Positions 1-44,656 of a stretch of 44,656 bases of DNA are shown here, piece after piece. The position numbers were made by a program, and so were the translations under genes. How positions within the stretch are numbered: position 1 is the first letter of the stretch; each line of letters opens with the position of its first letter. The DNA comes from a virus. Lineage: Duplodnaviria; Heunggongvirae; Uroviricota; Caudoviricetes. The notes beneath the pieces are model-generated. The model did not search any database and had not been told where the DNA came from. It saw only the letters and a program-made list of their open reading frames with translations. The stretch lies in IMG/VR virus record IMGVR_UViG_3300045988_024106, one strand, 5' to 3'.

Positions 1-85
1 ACGGAAACCGACTTAGCGGAAGCAATTGAAAGCCTGGAGAAGTTACGGGAGTACCGAAGTAATATTGATGAGTAAGAAAAAAAAG
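1..85. repeat. 85-bp terminal duplication, identical to 44572-44656 (circular closure or terminal redundancy)
   Basis: Direct comparison of the first and last 85 nt of the window; contains the 3' end of the CDS that starts at 44416. Confidence 0.9.
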
Positions 86-6692: not shown

Positions 6693-6924
6693 GGGTAATC
6701 ACCTCTGATTTCGTCTTGCCTTCGTTGTCAGCAGCGGCTGCCTTTGATTCGTCCTGCTGCTGCCGTTGTGTTTTCTTCGCTAACTCGGCCTGCGCTTCTT
6801 GCTGTTGCTGTGAAACGAGATTCGCCCGGCCTTCGTTCCAGCCGCTGCGGTATTGAAAGTAGCCGTGTGCGTAAGCCAGGATGATGAAACATGCTCCAGC
6901 TACGACAGTTGCTTTAAGATTCAT
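6538..6924 (-). CDS. Rz: i-spanin (Rz-like)
   Basis: 128 aa; N-terminal transmembrane segment (KATVVAGACFIILAYAHGYF) then Gln/Glu-rich coiled coil; RBS AAGGAG; overlapping Rz1 partner. Confidence 0.65.
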   Translation of the reverse strand: MNLKATVVAGACFIILAYAHGYFQYRSGWNEGRANLVSQQQQEAQAELAKKTQRQQQDESKAAAADNEGKTKSEVITREVVKYIRTPGRSVCTFDDAHVLLKSRAVANANSIPGYDDDAAAVQTGAAK

Positions 6925-6940
6925 GTTTCTCCTTTCTCGA

Positions 6941-6968
6941 TAAGTAAAGCCCCGCCATAAAGCGGGGC
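6941..6968 (-). terminator. Terminator-like hairpin ~20 nt upstream of the Rz start (minus strand)
   Basis: gccccgc-cataaa-gcggggc (6949-6968); minus-strand tail TTTACTTAT; lies between element R1 and Rz. Confidence 0.45.
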
Positions 6969-7034
6969 GCTAGTCCTTATCATTTAAACATAGAAACGGC
7001 GTAATCTCAGTAAACCCGTTACTTTTTACACAAG

Positions 7035-7177
7035 CAATAGAGTATGGCCCTTCCGAACGCGTCAGCGTAACTACACTCAGGACTTACGTCCCGCTCCGCT
7101 ACCTGCCCGCGCCGCGGTCGCTTGTTCATACTTCACAAGCTCAGGTGGAGCTTAGCATATTTTCAGTGAAAAGTCAA
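7035..7177. repeat. Element R1: ~145-bp structured intergenic element, paralogous to R2 (20251-20395); candidate sRNA/regulatory element
   Basis: Alignment by eye to 20251-20395; core 7112-7160 differs from 20330-20378 by one base; contains hairpins gcttgt-N9-acaagc and aagctc-N5-gagctt. Confidence 0.6.
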
Positions 7178-7242
7178 CTATTCGAATAGTTTATTCCAAC
7201 ATTTACAATTCGGTGGAATAACTGGAATACGTAAATAAATAG

Positions 7243-7276
7243 TTTACAGACACCAACATAATAGGGTACCATTCGG
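7243..7276 (+). promoter_or_regulatory. Promoter/operator box (P-box) upstream of the mini-clamp gene
   Basis: tttacagacaccaacataatagggtaccattcgg; related to boxes at 9398, 42810, 18253(-), 20065(-); holds a TATAAT-like hexamer and an imperfect AATAG-N4-CTATT palindrome. Confidence 0.55.
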
Positions 7277-7299
7277 ATAACTTAAACAGGAGATGTAAA

Positions 7300-7821
7300 A
7301 TGGTTGCCACAGTAATTACTTTTCCCGCGTATGTAGGGGCGAAAATCTGCAGGGCTAAAAATGATGTACGCTACTATCTGAACGCTTTTTACATAGACCC
7401 GGAAGGATTGATAGTGTCTACGGACGGCCATAGATTGTTCTGCGACAATGTTAAGACAAACGTTGAGAATGGGGCTCTCATAGACATAAAAGGGAGAGAG
7501 CCTTCTAAATTTAACTACGCGGAAGTAGACCACGACAACGGCAGTGTATCTTTCTATGACGATAGTCGTGCGCTTATATGTACACTTCCGGTGGATGTTG
7601 TAGACGGAAAATTTCCTGACTGGCGACGTGTGGCGCACATCACGCCGGGGGCAGTTGATAGCATAGGATTTACCATGCCCTACTTGGCAGACGCGCACAA
7701 GATTTCTAAGGCATACAAAAATGAAATTGCTCGTTTCGATTTCCAGGACCAAACCAGAGGATGCAAAATATCGTTTTCAAACACTGCATTTATGGTGCTA
7801 ATGCCAGCGCGATTTAAATAA
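7300..7821 (+). CDS. Truncated beta-sliding-clamp (DnaN-like) protein, moron
   Basis: 173 aa; DVRYYLN...STDGHRL, VDGKFPDWRRV, IGFTMPYLAD and C-terminal MVLMPARFK match conserved E. coli DnaN domain II/III segments (from memory); RBS ACAGGAG; own promoter and terminator. Confidence 0.6.
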   Translation: MVATVITFPAYVGAKICRAKNDVRYYLNAFYIDPEGLIVSTDGHRLFCDNVKTNVENGALIDIKGREPSKFNYAEVDHDNGSVSFYDDSRALICTLPVDVVDGKFPDWRRVAHITPGAVDSIGFTMPYLADAHKISKAYKNEIARFDFQDQTRGCKISFSNTAFMVLMPARFK

Positions 7822-7827
7822 AACTAA

Positions 7828-7848
7828 GGCCCCTTAACGGGGCCTTTT
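7828..7848. terminator. Bidirectional rho-independent terminator
   Basis: ggcccc-ttaa(c)-ggggcc hairpin followed by TTTT; A-rich on the opposite side; between convergent CDS 7300..7821 (+) and 7850..8311 (-). Confidence 0.7.
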
Positions 7849-7849
7849 A

Positions 7850-8311
7850 TCATTCTGGCTTAGTAACCTTCGCCGCCTTGCTTACCGCCTCTACCCCATC
7901 AGCATCAGTAACTTTAACGAAGTATTCACCAGCCGCATTAACAGTCAGAGACAGAGCCTCTTCCGGGGCGTTCACCACTTCCTTCCCGTCTTTGTACCAG
8001 GTCAGTACATACGGCGCTTTACCTGCCTTAACTTCGACGGTGATGGTGGCGCTACCGTCGACCAGCTCGGTGTCTTTCGGTTGCACAGAGAAATACATGT
8101 CACCAGCGTCTGCCAGATACGGAATCTCGTAAAGCATGCCCGCCGCCGGTAGCGCAATACCGGTTTTATCTGCGAACGGCATATCGTCTACCGGTGTACC
8201 TAGTACACTTTCATCTTCAATAAACACCACATTCTCGCCGGAGCCAGACACACGGGCGTACTGGACTACGCGGCGCGCGGGTACATCAGTTACTTTGAAA
8301 AAGCCCATCAT
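7850..8311 (-). CDS. Ig-like domain protein (putative head decoration/accessory)
   Basis: 153 aa; C-terminal TITVEVKAGKAPYVLTWYKDGKEV...GEYFVKVTD is an Ig-like repeat; start overlaps the stop of the head morphogenesis gene (TAATG). Confidence 0.5.
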   Translation of the reverse strand: MMGFFKVTDVPARRVVQYARVSGSGENVVFIEDESVLGTPVDDMPFADKTGIALPAAGMLYEIPYLADAGDMYFSVQPKDTELVDGSATITVEVKAGKAPYVLTWYKDGKEVVNAPEEALSLTVNAAGEYFVKVTDADGVEAVSKAAKVTKPE

Positions 8312-9411
8312 TAATCCCCTTTCAGATAATCAGCAACACGTTTATCGAGTTCCGCCATCTGCTTAAGCGTGAGCGGATTCCCGAAACCATCTACAGATAT
8401 TACGCGAAACTCTTCCGGCGATATACCGCTGTTACGGAAAATCTTACCGCGAACTGGCCCTAATGCTTCATCCTGAAACCACGCCGGTTGTTGTTTAAGG
8501 AACTCGTAATAGGTGGTGTCTGCACTTACCTGAGTACCGCCGTCCGCACCCTTAGCCGCGCGTTTTGCGCCTTTATCGAGGAAGTCGAACTCAGAACTGA
8601 TTACAGGCGCGGTGGTGCTTCGGCAATTAGGATGCGCGGGTGGCATCGGCCCTTTACCAATTTCCCACGTCATTCCGTCTCTGGCCCTGCAAATCGTGCT
8701 GGTGCGGCTGTCCAGCGTTGACACCCACTCGTATTTCTCGATGATGTCGTCGTTCCGGCGATACGTCTCGTTACGGGCTTCATTGGATACGTGAGACAGC
8801 GCGGTGCGGATTACGGTAGCCGCGTTACGTTCAGAGATGTCAGCCAGTCCGCCAGCGCCTACGACATTCTTAACAATCTGTCGTGTTGTCTGACCTTGTA
8901 CGAACCCCATCTTAACGCCCGTTACAAGACGGGCGACTTCGGTTTCACCCCAGCCATCCATCAGCTTAGTGAAGTCGACAGGCTTGTCGCTCAGTGAGAG
9001 CGGTTGAAACTCAGCAGCGGCCCACACCTGTTCAGCGGTGGGTGTAACGAATTCTGCGTTAACGTTGGTGGCTAGTGTCTTTACGTTCCACTCAGCCTCA
9101 TACGCTGCCAGCTCCTTAAGGTCTTCTGTCAGCTTTGTTCGCCAGTCGCCTGTAAGTCCGGTTAGTGCTTCTTCAATGTCGCGTAACAGTTTATTCAGTC
9201 GCGCAGTGCTACGCCCGTCGTCACCGAATAGCAGCACCTGCCGTTTGATTTCATCTCGCATTTCCTGGATAAACGGAGCGAGGTCTTTCACTTCACCGGA
9301 TGCGGTGCGTTGCAGCCAAATCTGGTGGCTGATTAGGGATGTAAGTAAGCTCATAGGCCCTCCTGTGGTATCGCCAGTGTAACGCATAAAAATAATATTT
9401 GCAGACACCAA
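8311..9411 (-). CDS. Head morphogenesis protein (Mu F / SPP1 gp7-like minor head protein)
   Basis: 366 aa; STLDSRTSTICRARDGMTW resembles the Phage_Mu_F family; located just downstream of the portal gene. Confidence 0.7.
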   Translation of the reverse strand: MVSANIIFMRYTGDTTGGPMSLLTSLISHQIWLQRTASGEVKDLAPFIQEMRDEIKRQVLLFGDDGRSTARLNKLLRDIEEALTGLTGDWRTKLTEDLKELAAYEAEWNVKTLATNVNAEFVTPTAEQVWAAAEFQPLSLSDKPVDFTKLMDGWGETEVARLVTGVKMGFVQGQTTRQIVKNVVGAGGLADISERNAATVIRTALSHVSNEARNETYRRNDDIIEKYEWVSTLDSRTSTICRARDGMTWEIGKGPMPPAHPNCRSTTAPVISSEFDFLDKGAKRAAKGADGGTQVSADTTYYEFLKQQPAWFQDEALGPVRGKIFRNSGISPEEFRVISVDGFGNPLTLKQMAELDKRVADYLKGD

Positions 9412-9431
9412 TATAATAGGGTACTATTCAG
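9398..9431 (+). promoter_or_regulatory. Promoter/operator box (P-box)
   Basis: tttgcagacaccaatataatagggtactattcag; exact TATAAT at 9412-9417 and palindrome AATAG-ggta-CTATT at 9415-9428. Confidence 0.6.
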
Positions 9432-9455
9432 TTATTGAAACGAGGATATAAAGAA

Positions 9456-9671
9456 ATGAAGTTAACTAAATTAGAGAAGAAAACAACAGAAGAAGCCATT
9501 AAACATGGCTATACCTTCAAAAACGACTCACATTTCACTAGCTTTCAGCAAGGGGACCGCACAATTAGAAAACTAATGGATAAGGGTTTTCTTGTAATGG
9601 TCGACGACGGGAATGGGGTTGAATACAGACCATCACAACGGGCTTTCGACTTCATAAAATACGGCGTATAA
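9456..9671 (+). CDS. Hypothetical protein (moron; possible small winged-helix protein)
   Basis: 71 aa from ATG at 9456 (RBS GAGGA); flanked by P-box and terminator; opposite strand to the surrounding head genes. Confidence 0.5.
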   Translation: MKLTKLEKKTTEEAIKHGYTFKNDSHFTSFQQGDRTIRKLMDKGFLVMVDDGNGVEYRPSQRAFDFIKYGV

Positions 9672-9678
9672 CGTTATT

Positions 9679-9704
9679 AGGCCCCATAACGGGGCCTTTT
9701 CTTT
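9679..9704. terminator. Bidirectional rho-independent terminator
   Basis: ggcccc-ataac-ggggcc hairpin followed by TTTTCTTT; between convergent CDS 9456..9671 (+) and portal (-). Confidence 0.7.
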
Positions 9705-20250: not shown

Positions 20251-20395
20251 CAATAGACTATGGCCCTTCCGAATGCGCCAGCGAGACTCACTCCACACGT
20301 CGAGACGTGCTCGTTTCGCCTGCCGCGCACCGCGGTCGCTTGTTCATACTTCACAAGCTCAGGTCGAGCTTAGCATATTTCTTAGTAAAAGTCAA
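20251..20395. repeat. Element R2: ~145-bp structured intergenic element, paralogous to R1 (7035-7177); candidate sRNA/regulatory element
   Basis: Alignment by eye to R1; nearly identical core 20330-20378; the upstream half has a different hairpin (cacgtc-ga-gacgtg) at the position of R1's ggac-ttac-gtcc. Confidence 0.6.
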
Positions 20396-27420: not shown

Positions 27421-27439
27421 TATCTGAATCAATTTAACT

Positions 27440-27462
27440 AAGGCCCTTCATTGGGCCTTTTT
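27440..27462 (+). terminator. Rho-independent terminator/attenuator before the DNA polymerase gene
   Basis: aaggccc-ttcatt-gggcctt hairpin followed by TTTTT. Confidence 0.6.
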
Positions 27463-27479
27463 ACTAAGGGTCGAAAATA

Positions 27480-39655: not shown

Positions 39656-41943
39656 TATTTGAACCCCGGCGCATTTCTTGTGGCCTTTCGGGCCTTGCTA
39701 ATCTTACTGTTGCTGTTCTGCAAAGAGGCAGCCACTTGCTCTTCGATGATGATACGCAAACGGCCTTCATCATCTTGTTCAGTGGATACGTTGCCAATCT
39801 GACTCGATGTGTTATTTACGATGGTAACATTAGATGGGCCAGAAGAAGACCCGTTTTGCCCCATAATTTCTTTCATCTGCTGCGCGGTGCGCACACGCGA
39901 TGCGCCAGCGGGCATGATAACTTCGGGTTTACCACGTTCAGCGATAGTAGAAGCCTGCCCCGCGGATAACTGACCGCCCTGTTCACGCGCGGACCTGATA
40001 GCGGAAATCTGCGCCATACCCGCCCCAACGGCTGCGGCAGCGGCTACAGGGGCAAGGAACGGACCAACAATAGGGATAGCCGCCGTAGACTTGTACGCCT
40101 CAATAGCTGCGGTGTACGTGGCTATAGTGGCCTGTACGATAGCGAATGCTTTATACGCACCAGAAGCCTCGCCCAACGCAGACCCGATGTTTGAAGCCAT
40201 GTTACCAAAGGCGGTTGCTGTTGCGTCGGCACGTTTCGTGGCGTACTGCTCGTTGATGGCGTTAAGCGCGGCCTGATACTGCGTCTCACTAATCAGACCC
40301 TGCTCACGGTACTTATCCGCCACCGCCAGTTTCTGCTGTTCCTGGATGTCGAGAAGCTCAAGCTCAGTAGCGTTCTGGCCCATAATCTGAGCCATGAAGT
40401 CGTCACCTTTCTGCTGCTTTTCCTGGGCTTCTTTCTGGCGTTTATCCAGTTCATCTTGGCGTTTTTGCCCTGCTTCAAGGACGATAGCTGTTTTAGCTTG
40501 TTCGTATTCTTTCAGAGACAACGCGCCCTGTCTGTAGAACTCTTTTGCCTTAGCCAGTTTCTGCTGTTCCTGAGCGTCAATAGCCTTTAACTCGTCGTTG
40601 TTCTGACGGGCTAAAGTGTCGAGGTAATCCTGCGCCTGTTTACGCAGTTGCTCCGCTTTCTTAGCGGCGGCTTTCGCGTCTTTGTCGTCGGCGTTTCCGG
40701 TGCCGCCAGTTCCGCCCTTTTTATTAACAAGGCTGGCTAAGTCAATTTCTTGCTTCTTGCGCTCGTCATACTGCTTGCGCTGTTCCTCAATTTCTTTCTT
40801 ACGCTGCTTAGACCTGTTGGTGATGGCCTGTGATTCGGCCTCTGCGCGTTTTATGCTGGCGGCGTATGCGGCGTCAGCCTCTGCGGTCAGGTTTTTAAAT
40901 GTGAGTGCTGCCGTTTTGCTCGGGTCAAACACGTCAGCGAGGGTCTGTCCTAACGCTACGGCATAATCGTCAATGCGCTGGAACCACGCAATAACCTCAT
41001 GGAATGTCTGCTGGATGTCAGGCAACCACTCACGGATAGCGTCCGGTATAGTACCCAGCGAGTCGGACATGTCCGCGGATTTGTTCTCGGTGTCATATGC
41101 CAGGTCGTTCAAAGCGTCAGAAATAAACTTGAACGACTCATTGAACAGTGTCACCCAATCCTGGAGTGTGGCGGCTATCTCATTAGACGCGATGGCATCA
41201 GTAAGCGCCGTGATAGCATCTTCCGCCCTCGCAGCTTGCTCACCTACTGCGTCGCCGAAACCTGATTGCGCCACCGCAAGTACAAGGCCGTCAAAGGAGT
41301 CCGCCAGGCTCGACAACTGACCATCTAATGTCTTAGAGCGCGTCTCCATTGCCCCGGCGAAATCCGTGTTGCCGATGTTCAGAAGGTATTTCTGAATCTC
41401 TTCGGAGTTCTTTTTAACAGTAGTCGTTACGCCGCGGAACGTGAACGAAACCGTATCCGCCTGTTGCGACGACTTGATACCAAACTCTTTCAGTCGCTCA
41501 AACTCAAAGGTACTGGCGTCCGCCACGGCCTCAATCATCTGATTAAGGTCTTTACCCATCGCAGCGGCGGTGTTGCCGTAGGAGATTAACGCCTCTTTGC
41601 TGGGATTCAGGCCGAGAGCTACAAGTTTAGTGAAGCCCTCAACAGCCTGGTTAAGGCCGTATGGGGTCTCTTTTGCGAACTGTTGCAGGACGCTGAAAGC
41701 CTTAGCGGCATTCTCGGCACTCCCGGTCATCGTGATGAGGCCGGAGTTCAGCTTGTCGAAGTTTCGCTGGGAGTCCACCAGCGCACTGAACACCTGTTTG
41801 GCGGTTTCCAGACTGACGACGGCGGCTGCGGCAGCCCCCGCCGCCTTAGTGAGCCCGTTCAGTTGTGATGTGGTTTTATCGACGCCGGTCGATGATACTC
41901 GTACTATCAAGCTAGCGGTATCAGCCATGATTTCTACCTTCAA
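39655..41943 (-). CDS. Tail tape measure protein
   Basis: 762 aa; long Ala/Gln/Glu/Lys-rich predicted helical protein; downstream of the G/T chaperone pair. Confidence 0.8.
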   Translation of the reverse strand: MKVEIMADTASLIVRVSSTGVDKTTSQLNGLTKAAGAAAAAVVSLETAKQVFSALVDSQRNFDKLNSGLITMTGSAENAAKAFSVLQQFAKETPYGLNQAVEGFTKLVALGLNPSKEALISYGNTAAAMGKDLNQMIEAVADASTFEFERLKEFGIKSSQQADTVSFTFRGVTTTVKKNSEEIQKYLLNIGNTDFAGAMETRSKTLDGQLSSLADSFDGLVLAVAQSGFGDAVGEQAARAEDAITALTDAIASNEIAATLQDWVTLFNESFKFISDALNDLAYDTENKSADMSDSLGTIPDAIREWLPDIQQTFHEVIAWFQRIDDYAVALGQTLADVFDPSKTAALTFKNLTAEADAAYAASIKRAEAESQAITNRSKQRKKEIEEQRKQYDERKKQEIDLASLVNKKGGTGGTGNADDKDAKAAAKKAEQLRKQAQDYLDTLARQNNDELKAIDAQEQQKLAKAKEFYRQGALSLKEYEQAKTAIVLEAGQKRQDELDKRQKEAQEKQQKGDDFMAQIMGQNATELELLDIQEQQKLAVADKYREQGLISETQYQAALNAINEQYATKRADATATAFGNMASNIGSALGEASGAYKAFAIVQATIATYTAAIEAYKSTAAIPIVGPFLAPVAAAAAVGAGMAQISAIRSAREQGGQLSAGQASTIAERGKPEVIMPAGASRVRTAQQMKEIMGQNGSSSGPSNVTIVNNTSSQIGNVSTEQDDEGRLRIIIEEQVAASLQNSNSKISKARKATRNAPGFK

Positions 41944-42187
41944 AGATTGCTTCTAAGCCCATGATAATGTCTATCTCGAACAGACTAAGCTGCTTTTGCG
42001 TAACATCGAGATAGGCTTTCAGGTCTTGCCACGTAACGGATTCTCTTGCAAACAATACTACAGCGTCCTCGCGCACGTGTCGCGTAAACTTAATGTCGCA
42101 ATACGTCTCAAAGGTGGATATAAAAAGGGGTGGACATTCTGGCCCACCCCGTCGCGCTGCACGTTTTTTCTTATCGATTACACCCAT
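41921..42187 (-). CDS. Tail assembly chaperone T-extension (likely made as a G-T fusion by -1 frameshift)
   Basis: ORF in the -1 frame relative to G; manual translation shows this frame open from before the G stop (42286-42288) through to 41921. Confidence 0.5.
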   Translation of the reverse strand: MGVIDKKKRAARRGGPECPPLFISTFETYCDIKFTRHVREDAVVLFARESVTWQDLKAYLDVTQKQLSLFEIDIIMGLEAIFEGRNHG

Positions 42188-42702: not shown

Positions 42703-42809
42703 TCTTTAATCCTTTGGTTAAGAGGTTACGGGTTAATGGTAAATGCGCCAGACGGGAACCACCCGCTTTTCGTGTGCGACACTAGGCGCAAAATTATTCT
42801 ATCACATTA

Positions 42810-42843
42810 CTTGCAGACCCCAATATAATAGGGTACTATTCAC
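42810..42843 (+). promoter_or_regulatory. Promoter/operator box (P-box) for the moron island
   Basis: cttgcagaccccaatataatagggtactattcac; TATAAT plus palindrome AATAG-ggta-CTATT; upstream of the Imm-like gene. Confidence 0.6.
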
Positions 42844-42869
42844 TTACACCATCAATGAAGGGGTTTAAA

Positions 42870-43061
42870 ATGTCAAGTTTACCAGTTTCCTTAATTCTGT
42901 TTGCACTGCTCGCTTATTTCGCGCCTTTCCTGGTTGCGTACTTCCGTAACCATAAAGCGAAGTTGGCAATATTCATGGCCAATCTGTTTCTTGGCTGGAT
43001 TCTGCTGCCGTGGGTATTTATCTTAATCTGGGCGTGCAACTCGAATGTTAACGAGAAGTGA
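42870..43061 (+). CDS. Superinfection immunity protein (Imm_superinfect-like small membrane protein)
   Basis: 63 aa from ATG at 42870 (RBS GAAGGGG); AYFAPFLVAYFRNHKAKLAIFMANLFLGWILLPWVFILIWA matches the family pattern (..RNHK...IF.LNL.LGW...W..ALIWA). Confidence 0.6.
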   Translation: MSSLPVSLILFALLAYFAPFLVAYFRNHKAKLAIFMANLFLGWILLPWVFILIWACNSNVNEK

Positions 43062-43098: not shown

Positions 43099-44229
43099 AT
43101 GGCCCGGAAGAAAATAACCGACGAACAGTTGCAGGAAGAATTGAACGCCGGCATGAAGAATATCGACATCGCCCGTAAATACGGCATATCAGACCGCGTT
43201 ATTCGTATTCGTAAAGCGAAGCTGGCTAAGAAAGGCGTAGGCCACGGGCGTGACGTTAGCCACCTTGTGCCAGACGGCTACAAGATTAAAGGCACGTCGT
43301 CACTTGTGGACGAGTTCGGCAACACTAAGTTGCAATGGGTTAAGACCGATACTGACGCCGAACGTCAGATAGAGTTGATGAAAGCCGTAATCGAAGGCAT
43401 GAAGTCAGAGATTACACCCGTTGCACCTGTTAAAGCCGTTCGCGCTAAACGCGACGACAAGCTACTCAATCTTTACACGGTATCTGATTTCCATCTCGGT
43501 ATGCTGGCATGGGCCGACGAGAGCGGCGACGACTGGGACATGAAGATTGCGGAAGACCTGTTCTCCCGCTGGTTCGATGCGGCGTTTCAGAAAGCACCGG
43601 ATGCGGGAACAGGGGTTATTAACCTGCTTGGTGATTTCGCGCACTTCGATAGTCTGGATGCCGTTACGCCAGCGAGCGGTCATGTTCTTGATGCGGACAC
43701 ACGCTACCAAAAGCTAGTCCGCTACATGATTCGTATGGTGCGCCGTGTTATTGATACGGCCCTCGTTAAGCATAAAAATGTTCGCTTGCTTATCGTGCAA
43801 GGGAACCACGACGAAAGCGGAATGATTTGGTTGGCTGAGATGTTCAGTACACTGTACGACAATGAGCCGCGTGTGTTCGTCGATACGTCGCCGGATGTTT
43901 ACAAGATGGTGCAACACGGCAAAACTACACTGTTCTTTCACCACGGGCATAAGGCGCGATTCGACGCTATCGAACCGGTAATGATTGCTAAGTTCCGCAA
44001 AGCGTTCGGAGAGAGTGTTTACAGCTACGCCCACGTAGGCCACCTGCACCATCAGAAGATTGTAGAAAGCCGTAACATGATTGTTGAGCAACACCGAACC
44101 TTAGCGGCTAAAGACGCCTATGCCTCACGCGGCGGTTGGATGTCAGGGCGCAGTGCAAATGTAATTACTTATAGCGCCGAATATGGTGAGGTTGCACGTT
44201 TAACTATTTCACCGGAGATGCTGGGATGA
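43099..44229 (+). CDS. HTH-domain / calcineurin-like metallophosphoesterase fusion protein
   Basis: 376 aa; N-terminal HTH-like NIDIARKYGISDRVIRIRK; phosphoesterase motifs D-x-H (VSDFHLG), GD (LLGDFAHFD), GNHD/E (VQGNHDE), HHGH and GHLHH. Confidence 0.65.
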   Translation: MARKKITDEQLQEELNAGMKNIDIARKYGISDRVIRIRKAKLAKKGVGHGRDVSHLVPDGYKIKGTSSLVDEFGNTKLQWVKTDTDAERQIELMKAVIEGMKSEITPVAPVKAVRAKRDDKLLNLYTVSDFHLGMLAWADESGDDWDMKIAEDLFSRWFDAAFQKAPDAGTGVINLLGDFAHFDSLDAVTPASGHVLDADTRYQKLVRYMIRMVRRVIDTALVKHKNVRLLIVQGNHDESGMIWLAEMFSTLYDNEPRVFVDTSPDVYKMVQHGKTTLFFHHGHKARFDAIEPVMIAKFRKAFGESVYSYAHVGHLHHQKIVESRNMIVEQHRTLAAKDAYASRGGWMSGRSANVITYSAEYGEVARLTISPEMLG

Positions 44230-44426: not shown

Positions 44427-44646
44427 ATACAACCGCACAATGACAAACACTCACGGCAGCACTATGACAGTAGACGTTTATGACGTGCTACGTGCTTTCG
44501 ACATCCGCGACCCGGCGTTACAGCACGCATTGAAGAAGCTATTGTGTATGGGCCTTCGCGGGCACAAAGATACGGAAACCGACTTAGCGGAAGCAATTGA
44601 AAGCCTGGAGAAGTTACGGGAGTACCGAAGTAATATTGATGAGTAA
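44416..44646 (+). CDS. Hypothetical protein (runs into the terminal duplication)
   Basis: 76-aa ORF (GTG at 44416; alternative ATG at 44440); 3' end lies in the 85-bp repeat and is followed by terminator 76-108. Confidence 0.4.
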   Translation: MTNKYNRTMTNTHGSTMTVDVYDVLRAFDIRDPALQHALKKLLCMGLRGHKDTETDLAEAIESLEKLREYRSNIDE

Positions 44647-44656
44647 GAAAAAAAAG
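44572..44656. repeat. 85-bp terminal duplication (copy of 1-85)
   Basis: Exact identity with window positions 1-85. Confidence 0.9.

What the first reader, a model, noticed from the sequence alone, without database searches (positions are those of the whole stretch)
7243..7848. Truncated beta-sliding-clamp (DnaN domain II/III) homologue encoded as a self-contained moron inside the head gene cluster
ORF 7300..7821 (173 aa) has a run of motifs that match conserved segments of E. coli DnaN, recalled from memory, in the same order: DVRYYLN(A/G), (V)STDGHRL, VDGKFPDWRRV (DnaN VDGRFPDYRRV), IGFTMPYLAD (DnaN IGFNVSYVLD) and C-terminal MVLMPARFK (DnaN VVMPMRL). It is less than half the length of a clamp protomer, so it would lack domain I and most of domain III. 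It has its own promoter/operator box (7243-7276) and a bidirectional terminator (7828-7848), and reads opposite to the flanking head genes. A clamp fragment could act as a dominant-negative partner of the host clamp or as a decoy for clamp-binding proteins; I know of no described system of this kind.
Basis: partly seen in the sequence, partly recalled or inferred. Interest (0 to 1): 0.8.

Follow-up and report, generated by a model that had tools for sequence, protein, structure and literature searches.

The report
Pocket-only mini sliding clamp of phages
This phage carries, as a small movable gene cassette, a cut-down copy of the bacterial DNA sliding clamp that keeps the clamp's protein-docking pocket but has lost the parts that close a ring around DNA. 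It belongs to a very large, widely annotated but functionally unstudied phage protein family that probably competes with, or redirects, host proteins that normally dock on the clamp.

Summary

Its anatomy is more specific than "truncated". It has clamp domain II (second helix deleted), the inter-domain linker and only the second half of domain III. Domain I and the first half of domain III, which form the ring-closing dimer interface, are absent.

Of the 18 E. coli residues that form the clamp-binding-motif pocket, 15 are identical. Across 74 family members these columns are 80% identical to E. coli DnaN, against 22% elsewhere.

The cassette claim also holds. Window 7229-7848 (promoter-like element, gene, bidirectional terminator) sits as one unit in a different slot in phage fBC-Eco01.

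The gene is not new as an object. GenBank calls it "DNA polymerase III sliding clamp", PHROGs mislabels it "RusA-like", and short phage clamp homologues were noted in 2011. The family is very large (857 clusters at E<=1e-30, all about 170-250 aa), and I found no functional study.

Best reading, inferred: a free-standing docking pocket that titrates or redirects clamp clients. A ring-poisoning role is disfavoured.

The parts
7229..7848 (+). Mobile cassette: promoter-like element, mini-clamp gene and terminator
   Evidence: blastn shows window 7229-7848 equals fBC-Eco01 L092 2771-3392 (90.5%, 622 nt), located there between the head-morphogenesis and portal genes instead of between spanin and decoration genes. 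The three-piece matches of H5, H11, H12 and H16-H18 suggest a similar rearrangement in several further phages (not examined individually).
7241..7279 (+). Conserved 39-nt promoter-like element. It contains TTTACA(7243-7248)-18-TACCAT(7267-7272) and an alternative -10-like CATAAT at 7255-7260.
   Evidence: Consensus scan. Three copies occur in the window, at 7241-7279, 9396-9434 and 42808-42846, each upstream of a + strand cassette (family D2, 0 expected by chance). Its counterpart in fBC-Eco01 is annotated as a PHIRE 'phage promoter2'. Not experimentally verified.
7288..7292 (+). Shine-Dalgarno sequence AGGAG, 7 nt before the ATG
   Evidence: Read directly from the sequence. A ribosome-binding site is annotated at the same place in phage Snoke.
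7300..7821 (+). Mini-clamp CDS, 173 aa (the end coordinate includes the stop codon)
   Evidence: ORF list; purifying selection in this frame; PHROG 3007 at E 1.6e-37; AF2 pLDDT 96.
7300..7638 (+). Residues 1-113: clamp domain II plus the inter-domain linker (DnaN 129-253). The second helix (DnaN about 197-206) is deleted. Carries pocket residues R24, L27, T41, G43, H44, R45, L46, P106, R110, V111.
   Evidence: phmmer against PDB sequences; MAFFT mapping to E. coli DnaN; secondary structure of the model. The helix is retained in the distant member P0088.
7639..7818 (+). Residues 114-173: second half of clamp domain III (DnaN 311-366). Carries pocket residues T125, Y128, T152, V166, M168, P169, A170, R171.
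   Evidence: The C-terminal sub-profile alone gives hhalign 92%, E 6e-7 to DnaN 311-366 against 0.65% to 260-288, and hmmsearch 21.8 against -1.3 bits. The Foldseek alignment spans about 255 columns for 173 residues, so the first half of domain III is a gap. The Bas77 homologue hits PF02768 positions 71-121 of 121.
7826..7846 (.). Bidirectional intrinsic-terminator-like hairpin (AAGGCCCC-loop-GGGGCCTT) with T-runs on both strands
   Evidence: Similar hairpins occur at 9669-9701 and 27431-27463 (family D6). Terminators are annotated on both strands at this position in Snoke and fBC-Eco01.

Best explanation
The gene encodes a 'pocket-only' mini clamp. It is a compact protein derived from the bacterial beta sliding clamp. 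It keeps domain II, the linker and the second half of domain III, which are exactly the elements that build the hydrophobic cleft where clamp clients insert their clamp-binding motif (QL[SD]LF-like peptides). It has lost domain I and the first half of domain III, which close the ring (shown by sequence and model).

It is transcribed from its own sigma-70-like promoter, in the direction of the replication genes and against the late head genes, and is insulated by a bidirectional terminator (cassette shown; timing inferred).

Inferred mechanism: because it does not use the clamp's native ring-closing interface, it acts as a soluble copy of the docking site and competes with DNA-loaded host clamps for their clients. 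Clients that depend on one weak motif should be titrated most easily. These include the translesion polymerases II/IV/V, MutL/MutS, Hda, and RecB of the RecBCD nuclease. The Pol III holoenzyme makes several contacts, so it should be buffered. That would explain why the family is tolerated both in phages that use host Pol III and in phages with their own polymerase.
For: Homology and fold.

Architecture (domain II plus second half of III, with domain I and DnaN 254-310 absent). The same architecture appears in the distant member P0088, which is 27% identical to the window protein (pLDDT 93).

Pocket conservation. The pocket residue list comes from review PMC11139829.
- 15 of 18 pocket residues are identical to E. 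coli DnaN, against 28 of 137 other aligned positions (Fisher p 2.4e-7).
- Across 74 members the pocket columns are 80% identical to E. coli DnaN, against 22% elsewhere.
- Every column conserved at 80% or more is a pocket residue or lies next to or within three residues of one.

No partner inside the phage:
- No QLxLF or QLxLxF motif was found in the phage PolA, primase-helicase or other replication proteins.
- No gene is consistently adjacent across 79 viral loci.

Breadth of hosts and lifestyles. The family occurs in phages with their own PolA (this window; L093). It also occurs in a phage with no detectable polymerase, next to an anti-restriction gene, a ParB-like gene and a methyltransferase (Bas77). 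It occurs in a lambdoid prophage after cro (L094) and in a P. aeruginosa island.

Candidate client: RecB carries a motif that binds the canonical pocket, and mutating it impairs RecBCD DNA degradation (bioRxiv 10.1101/2025.08.20.671105).
Against: There is no binding, expression or phenotype data.

The pocket motifs are also the most conserved motifs of DnaN itself, and they were used as search seeds. Part of their conservation could therefore be structural or an ascertainment effect.

In prophages the gene sits directly upstream of replication genes: Rep_O in L094, and DUF2800/SSB/PolA in L093. That would equally suit a positive role in phage replication. A strong general sink for clamp-binding motifs would harm phages that rely on host Pol III.

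The oligomeric state is unknown. Family pI (median 7.7 against 5.25 for DnaN) is inconclusive. About 40% of members carry a C-terminal tail of unknown role.
Confidence: 0.42

Rival explanations
1. Replisome adaptor or unconventional processivity factor. The mini clamp uses its pocket to hold a polymerase or clamp-loader component (host Pol III alpha/delta, or a phage protein with a divergent motif) at the phage replication fork or origin. It would do this without encircling DNA, as herpesvirus UL42/UL44 do.
For: In prophages the gene is the first gene of the replication operon: cI|cro|mini-clamp|?|Rep_O in L094, and cI-like|mini-clamp|..|DUF2800|SSB|PolA|SNF2 in L093. O-like and DnaB genes lie at +1/+2 in 12-13 viral loci (clusters c20 and c19). 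In the window it is transcribed in the direction of the replication genes. Family pI is higher than that of ring clamps, the criterion used for non-ring clamps in PMC3201878.
Against: No recognisable clamp-binding motif was found in the phage polymerase or primase. The family occurs with very different replication modules and in a phage with no detectable polymerase, so no single phage partner exists. Only two long channel-type helices remain in the Kagunavirus form. The pI is near neutral, not strongly basic.
Confidence: 0.25
2. Self-assembling clamp. Four copies of the 1.5-domain protein (4 x 3 beta-alpha-beta-beta-beta units = 12 units), or two copies forming a C-shaped arc, would rebuild a ring or half-ring through new two-fold contacts between the exposed half-domains.
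For: Clamp rings have pseudo-symmetry in which half-domains are near-equivalent (established structural knowledge). An orphan half-domain usually needs a partner. In the domain-III helix the large hydrophobic residues of DnaN (L325, L328, L331) are replaced by Ala/Gly/Ser in most members, which could allow close helix packing.
Against: The monomer model is compact and confident without a partner (pTM 0.91 and 0.88). The same Ala/Gly/Ser and Lys substitutions fit solvent exposure equally well. The Kagunavirus form lacks one inner helix. No clamp loader is encoded. Multimer prediction could not be run with these tools.
Confidence: 0.1
3. Ring poison. The fragment caps a host beta monomer, or inserts at the opened clamp interface, and so prevents ring closure or loading.
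For: The free edge of the second half of domain II is homologous to the edge of domain I that pairs with domain III in the native dimer (inference from the repeat structure).
Against: Both native interface elements are missing: domain I, and DnaN 254-310 with I272/L273. Conservation is concentrated on the pocket, not on sheet edges. Blocking the host clamp would harm the members found in Pol III-dependent phages.
Confidence: 0.07
4. It is what part of the databases call it: either a bona fide 'DNA polymerase III sliding clamp' subunit, or a 'RusA-like Holliday junction resolvase' (the PHROG 3007 label).
For: GenBank and Pharokka annotations of orthologues. PHROG 3007 at E 1.6e-37.
Against: The protein is 173 aa against 366, and lacks domain I and half of domain III. 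It scores below the Pfam and TIGR00663 cut-offs. A Pfam scan with the E-value limit set to 10 returns no RusA family (HMMER filters drop most matches above about 0.1), and the fold is a clamp, not RusA.
Confidence: 0.02

Closest known systems
Bacterial beta sliding clamp DnaN (E. coli, PDB 1MMI/2POL; Pfam PF00712/PF02767/PF02768)
   Same: Homologous sequence and fold for domain II, the linker and the last ~56 residues of domain III. 15 of 18 residues of the clamp-binding-motif pocket are identical.
   Different: It is less than half the length. It has no domain I, no first half of domain III (the dimer interface) and no second helix of domain II. It cannot form the native head-to-tail dimer ring, and it scores below the curated family thresholds.
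Short phage polIII-beta homologues noted by Kazlauskas and Venclovas 2011 (PMC3201878); PHROG 3007
   Same: This is the same kind of object: phage proteins shorter than DnaN that match its C-terminal two thirds. The window protein is a full-length member of PHROG 3007.
   Different: [quoted passage not shown] Here domain III is shown to be only half present, and the conservation is shown to be centred on the pocket. PHROG's label 'RusA-like resolvase' is wrong.
E. coli beta* (UV-inducible ~26 kDa product of an internal start in dnaN; Skaliter et al. and Paz-Elizur et al., J Biol Chem 1996; cited from my own knowledge, not retrieved here)
   Same: A natural N-terminally truncated clamp that starts near the domain I/II boundary, as this protein does (query residue 1 aligns to DnaN 129).
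   Different: beta* keeps all of domains II and III and was proposed to form a PCNA-like trimer that still stimulates Pol III. The phage protein lacks half of domain III and is a separate, ancient gene family (28% identity).
Herpesvirus UL42 / UL44 / BMRF1 non-ring processivity factors
   Different: They have two full domains, a strongly basic DNA-binding face and a cognate viral polymerase tail that docks on them. None of this is shown here.
Phage-encoded clamp inhibitors such as Staphylococcus phage Twort Gp168 (PDB 7EVP)
   Different: Gp168 is unrelated in fold and acts by binding the host clamp. The mini clamp is itself a copy of the clamp's docking site and would act on the clients, not on the clamp.

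Membership tests
Beta sliding clamp DnaN (TIGR00663; Pfam DNA_pol3_beta, _2, _3) | Detectable homology to DnaN | tested here: met
Beta sliding clamp DnaN (TIGR00663; Pfam DNA_pol3_beta, _2, _3) | Score above the curated family cut-offs | tested here: not met
   PF02767 scores 17.7 bits against 27. TIGR00663 scores 17.7 against 137.65. No hit to PF00712.
Beta sliding clamp DnaN (TIGR00663; Pfam DNA_pol3_beta, _2, _3) | Three tandem clamp domains (about 366 aa) | tested here: not met
   173 aa. The alignment covers DnaN 129-253 and 311-366 only.
Beta sliding clamp DnaN (TIGR00663; Pfam DNA_pol3_beta, _2, _3) | Head-to-tail dimer interface (domain I with the first half of domain III, I272/L273) | tested here: not met
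   Both segments are absent. The role of I272/L273 is taken from PMC11139829.
Beta sliding clamp DnaN (TIGR00663; Pfam DNA_pol3_beta, _2, _3) | Clamp-binding-motif pocket (subsites I and II) | tested here: met
   15 of 18 residues are identical. Subsite I is fully identical (12 of 12). N320T, V344T and M364A differ. This is sequence-level evidence only; binding was not tested.
Beta sliding clamp DnaN (TIGR00663; Pfam DNA_pol3_beta, _2, _3) | Closed ring loaded on DNA by a clamp loader; confers processivity | not testable with these tools
   No multimer prediction or biochemistry was available. No clamp loader is encoded in the genome.
Short phage clamp-derived proteins (PHROG 3007) | Full-length profile match | tested here: met
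   E 1.6e-37, residues 13-172 against profile positions 12-186 of 190.
Short phage clamp-derived proteins (PHROG 3007) | Architecture of domain II + linker + second half of domain III, 170-250 aa | tested here: met
   Alignment of 74 members. Models of the window protein and of P0088. The top 150 of 857 strong library hits are all 141-302 aa.
RusA Holliday-junction resolvase (label attached to PHROG 3007) | RusA sequence family or fold | tested here: not met
   The Pfam scan (E-value limit 10) returned only DNA_pol3_beta_2. The structural neighbours are clamps.
Moron-type autonomous cassette (promoter, gene, terminator) | Own terminator | tested here: met
   Hairpin at 7826-7846 with T-runs on both strands.
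Moron-type autonomous cassette (promoter, gene, terminator) | Own promoter | tested here: inconclusive
   The consensus match is weak (9/12). However, the 39-nt element is repeated three times before co-oriented cassettes and moves with the gene. No transcript data are available.
Moron-type autonomous cassette (promoter, gene, terminator) | Independent insertion or mobility relative to neighbouring genes | tested here: met
   The same unit lies in a different slot in fBC-Eco01, whose original slot holds other genes.

The most novel reading that the evidence does not exclude
The mini clamp is the founding example of 'hub-pocket mimicry' as a phage counter-defence. By offering a soluble copy of the clamp's docking cleft, it pulls a clamp-dependent host nuclease off its activator. 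The prime candidate is RecBCD, through the QVEMEF motif of RecB. This would protect linear phage DNA early in infection without stopping Pol III. Thousands of phages and prophages would then share a previously unrecognised class of anti-RecBCD or anti-repair factor.
Probability: 0.12. Interest if true: 0.85.

Novelty: new variant of a known kind. Interest (0 to 1): 0.6.

Why it matters
The sliding clamp is the central docking hub of bacterial DNA replication and repair, and its pocket is an antibiotic target. A natural, stable, 170-residue protein that consists essentially of that pocket is an unexplored way for phages to manipulate the hub. The family has hundreds of 50%-identity clusters and spans virulent phages, temperate phages and genomic islands.

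If it titrates clamp clients, it would explain the long-standing oddity of 'stand-alone' viral clamp homologues without polymerases or loaders (raised in PMC4889955). It could also point to which clamp-dependent host activities are harmful to phages, such as translesion polymerases, mismatch repair, Hda or RecBCD.

It would also be a ready-made minimal scaffold for screening pocket ligands.

On the practical side, two current database names are misleading and propagate through automated annotation: 'DNA polymerase III sliding clamp' and 'RusA-like Holliday junction resolvase'.

Tried and rejected
- **Phage-encoded ligand.** A strict QLxLF/QLxLxF scan of all ORFs found a single QLSLF, in the frameshift (T) part of the tail-assembly chaperone (41921-42187, minus strand). 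About 0.2-0.5 hits are expected by chance. Relaxed motifs hit only structural or unrelated proteins, and none hit PolA or the primase-helicase. Not pursued.
- **Defence or anti-defence libraries.** PADLOC gave nothing for four family members.
- **Conserved neighbour across 79 IMG/VR loci.** None is universal. ParB-like, PolA/DUF2800 and Rep_O/DnaB each occur only within sub-clades. Metallophosphoesterase co-occurrence is weak: 4 loci for the window-type gene (3 of them close relatives of the window phage) and 3 loci for the L007-type gene.
- **Domain fusions.** None appeared among the top 120 profile hits. One BFVD hit lies inside a 1394-aa 'polyvalent protein', but it could not be examined. 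The polyvalent-protein paper does not mention clamps.
- **Whole-profile hhalign.** It ran the C-terminal helix on into the first half of domain III. I rejected this as an artefact of the internal repeat after the C-terminal-only test and the Foldseek column count.
- **Isoelectric point as a ring versus non-ring indicator.** The family is near neutral, so this is inconclusive.
- **afdb50 fold search.** The library was not available.
- **Literature.** Ten searches found no functional study of the short family.
- **Antisense ORF 7282..7752 as the real gene.** Rejected on substitution pattern.

Full report
**What the window is**

The region 6900-8400 is 99% identical to Escherichia phage vB_EcoS_fFiEco03 (Guernseyvirinae, Kagunavirus), and 191 phage records match it. 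The window is a whole genome with an 85-nt overlap at its ends (family D1).

On the minus strand, the genes run portal, head morphogenesis, Ig-like decoration on one side of the finding, and spanins, scaffold, major capsid protein on the other. The phage has its own replication module on the + strand: primase-helicase, DUF2800 nuclease, DUF2815 SSB, family-A polymerase, VRR-NUC and SNF2 helicase.

**Checking the observation**

ORF 7300..7821 (+) encodes 173 aa, with AGGAG 7 nt upstream of the ATG.

The + frame is the coding frame. Among seven orthologues at about 90% identity, variable sites fall 14/10/47 by codon position. Synonymous:non-synonymous codon changes are about 28:12 in the + frame and about 5:30 in the antisense ORF 7282..7752.

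Homology to the beta clamp is significant:
- phmmer against PDB sequences gives E 5e-6, with query 16-116 matching DnaN 144-252.
- Profile-profile comparison gives 99.6%, E 3e-24.
- PHROG 947 ('processivity factor') matches at E 1.9e-8.

The curated thresholds of Pfam PF02767 and TIGR00663 are not reached.

**Anatomy**

Mapping on E. coli DnaN (fetched as L006) shows two aligned blocks:
- Residues 1-113 match DnaN 129-253, which is domain II plus the linker.
- Residues 114-173 match DnaN about 311-366, which is the second beta-alpha-beta-beta-beta half of domain III.

Domain I and DnaN 254-310 are absent. The second helix of domain II (DnaN about 197-206) is also deleted in the Kagunavirus type.

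The two halves of a clamp domain are internal repeats, and the whole-profile hhalign slid the C-terminal helix onto the first half of domain III. I therefore tested the C-terminal part alone:
- hhalign gives 92% (E 6e-7) to DnaN 311-366, against 0.65% to 260-288.
- hmmsearch gives 21.8 bits against -1.3 bits.
- Foldseek alignments to E. coli clamps span about 255 columns for a 173-residue query, so the first half of domain III is a gap.
- The Bas77 homologue hits the last 50 positions of Pfam DNA_pol3_beta_3.

A distant member, P0088 (27% identical), models equally well (pLDDT 93). It has a complete domain II, with both helices, plus the same half domain III and a disordered tail. The '1.5-domain' architecture is therefore a family trait.

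**What is conserved**

The review PMC11139829 lists the 18 residues of the two subsites of the clamp-binding-motif pocket. In the window protein 15 are identical to E. coli DnaN. These include all 12 residues of subsite I: R152, L155, T172, G174, H175, R176, L177, P242, R246, V247, V360 and M362. Only N320T, V344T and M364A differ.

By comparison, 28 of 137 other aligned positions are identical (Fisher p 2.4e-7). Across 74 family members the pocket columns are 80% identical to E. coli DnaN, against 22% for the rest. Every column conserved at 80% or more is a pocket residue or lies next to or within three residues of one.

Geometrically, the retained pieces are exactly those that build the cleft: the first half of domain II, the linker and the second half of domain III. 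The lost pieces carry the ring-closing interface; I272/L273 lie in the missing segment. The protein is thus best described as a pocket-only mini clamp.

Family-specific signatures are W for DnaN Y244 (93%) and K for N329 (81%). In addition, Ala/Gly/Ser replace L325, L328 and L331 in the domain-III helix.

**The cassette**

Window 7229-7848 is found as one 622-nt unit (90.5% identity) in phage fBC-Eco01, but between the head-morphogenesis and portal genes. The original slot there holds two unrelated small genes.

The 39-nt element around the promoter-like hexamers occurs three times (7241-7279, 9396-9434, 42808-42846). Each copy precedes a + strand cassette embedded in the minus-strand structural block:
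- the mini clamp;
- a 78-aa ORF;
- the superinfection-immunity gene plus a metallophosphoesterase.

The terminator hairpin also belongs to a small family (family D6). As a plain sigma-70 match the promoter is unremarkable, and no transcript data exist, so activity and timing remain inferred.

**How widespread, and what is already known**

The family is very large.
- A full HMMER scan of 1.84 billion representative proteins gives 857 clusters at E<=1e-30; the best 150 are all 141-302 aa.
- At least 303 relatives occur in IMG/VR.
- 248 GenBank phage records carry one: Guernseyvirinae, Dhillonvirus-like, Skate/LPST10-like, Klebsiella, Bcep781, Sodalis SO-1, Serratia Eta and others.
- BFVD holds many 163-250-aa look-alikes at TMq 0.8-0.87.

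Annotators call it 'DNA polymerase III sliding clamp/beta subunit', 'beta clamp domain-containing protein' or, through PHROG 3007, 'RusA-like Holliday junction resolvase'. The last label is unsupported.

[quoted passage not shown] Their 2016 survey asked what stand-alone clamp homologues without a polymerase do. Genome papers simply assume a processivity role. I found no experimental study.

**Context and function**

There is no constant neighbour, no clamp loader, and no recognisable clamp-binding motif in the phage's replication proteins.

The gene occurs in several kinds of element:
- phages with their own PolA (this window; prophage L093, where it is the first gene after the repressor and precedes DUF2800/SSB/PolA/SNF2);
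- a lambdoid prophage at cI|cro|mini-clamp|?|Rep_O, which should replicate with host Pol III;
- BASEL phage Bas77, where no polymerase was detected and the gene closes a counter-oriented cassette of anti-restriction, ParB-like, C5-methyltransferase, a small ORF and the mini clamp;
- a P. aeruginosa integrative island, next to an NA37 nucleoid protein.

This breadth argues that the ligand is a host component shared by all hosts. The pocket conservation argues that the ligand is the canonical clamp-binding motif.

The model I commit to is a soluble competitor for clamp clients (confidence about 0.4). Because members live in Pol III-dependent phages, the effect must spare the holoenzyme. That is plausible for a multivalent, DNA-tethered complex, but it is not shown. 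Single-motif clients are the likelier victims. RecB is an attractive one: its QVEMEF motif binds the canonical pocket, and its loss impairs RecBCD DNA degradation.

The main rival (about 0.25) is a positive role at the phage fork or origin, suggested by the position in front of replication genes. Homo-oligomeric ring or arc formation (about 0.1) and poisoning of the host ring (about 0.07) cannot be excluded without multimer modelling or biochemistry. The missing native interface and the pocket-centred conservation speak against the latter.

**Verdict**

The object is known as an annotation, but its true architecture, its pocket-only nature and its function are undescribed. I rate it a new variant of a known kind, with moderate-to-high interest because of the family's size and the directness of the tests it invites.

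Noticed in passing
window 7241-7279, 9396-9434, 42808-42846: A 39-nt element (consensus about TTGCAGACACCAATATAATAGGGTACTATTC) occurs three times. Each copy lies just upstream of a + strand gene cassette embedded in the minus-strand structural genes: the mini clamp; a 78-aa ORF at 9435..9671 with no family match; and Imm superinfection immunity at 42855..43061 plus metallophosphoesterase at 43099..44229. It looks like a shared promoter or operator for a set of counter-oriented accessory cassettes.
   Followed up: partly
window 7817-7849, 9669-9701, 27431-27463: A family of near-identical GGCCCC-loop-GGGGCC terminator hairpins. Two of them close the cassettes that also share the promoter element, which gives a modular promoter-gene-terminator design.
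   Followed up: partly
window 7035-7072 and 7108-7177 versus 20251-20288 and 20326-20395: About 110 nt of the intergenic region upstream of the spanin/scaffold/capsid genes is repeated at 87-89% identity in the main divergent early control region near the primase-helicase operon. This may be a shared minus-strand promoter or regulatory region. It includes a 36-aa ORF (7019..7129, minus strand) that is annotated in related phages.
   Followed up: no
window 1-85 and 44572-44656: A perfect 85-nt direct repeat at the two ends of the window. The window is a complete phage genome of about 44.57 kb, written with an assembly overlap or terminal redundancy.
   Followed up: no
window 41921-42187 (minus strand), residues 66-70: The only perfect consensus clamp-binding motif in the genome, QLSLF, lies in the frameshift (T) extension of the tail-assembly chaperone, between the chaperone gene and the tape-measure gene. 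It is probably chance (about 0.2-0.5 expected). Its conservation in other mini-clamp phages was not checked.
   Followed up: partly
window 6949-6968 (minus strand): A strong terminator-like hairpin (GCCCCGC-loop-GCGGGGC plus a T-run) sits on the minus strand only about 25 nt upstream of the i-spanin start (6924). This leaves little room for a promoter for the spanin-scaffold-capsid genes. It may be a processing or stability element, or it may point to antitermination.
   Followed up: no
L092 (fBC-Eco01) 700-1142; window 9435-9671: The two counter-oriented slots in the head module exchange their cargo between related phages. In fBC-Eco01 the spanin|decoration slot holds a 33-aa and a 114-aa gene (PHROG 13472, unknown function), and the mini clamp sits in the head-morphogenesis|portal slot. 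These slots look like hotspots for accessory genes.
   Followed up: partly
PHROG 3007 / GenBank annotations of orthologues (for example PQ423993, PQ429079, NC_013600): The PHROG family holding these proteins is labelled 'RusA-like Holliday junction resolvase'. Pharokka-type pipelines spread this name, but the proteins have a clamp fold and no RusA signal.
   Followed up: yes
family members P0048, P0054, P0089, P0093, P0106, P0128 and others (not the window protein): 118 of 293 family members carry a disordered C-terminal tail of 10 or more residues after the MPxR end of the clamp fold. 55 of these tails contain a P-x-W motif (for example ALPAWALA, TPAWAQ). 49 end in Ala-Ala, which is reminiscent of ssrA-like ClpXP degrons (comparison from my own knowledge). 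The tail could be a degradation signal, a docking peptide or an auto-inhibitory pseudo-ligand.
   Followed up: partly
L003 8001-8699 (P. aeruginosa chromosome) and L004 10001-10576: Outside typical phages, the family occurs in an integrase-bearing island directly after an NA37 (YejK-like) nucleoid-associated protein gene. In a P22-portal phage contig it lies in the early region two genes after a DUF932 protein.
   Followed up: no
L091 (phage Snoke) 1712-2101: In Snoke, the head-morphogenesis gene next to the cassette is annotated as carrying a 273-residue intein. The window's copy (8311..9411) has none.
   Followed up: no
window 7282-7752 (minus strand): The antisense ORF stays free of stop codons in all six compared orthologues, although it evolves almost entirely by non-synonymous changes. 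This is probably a by-product of the codon usage of the + frame.
   Followed up: partly
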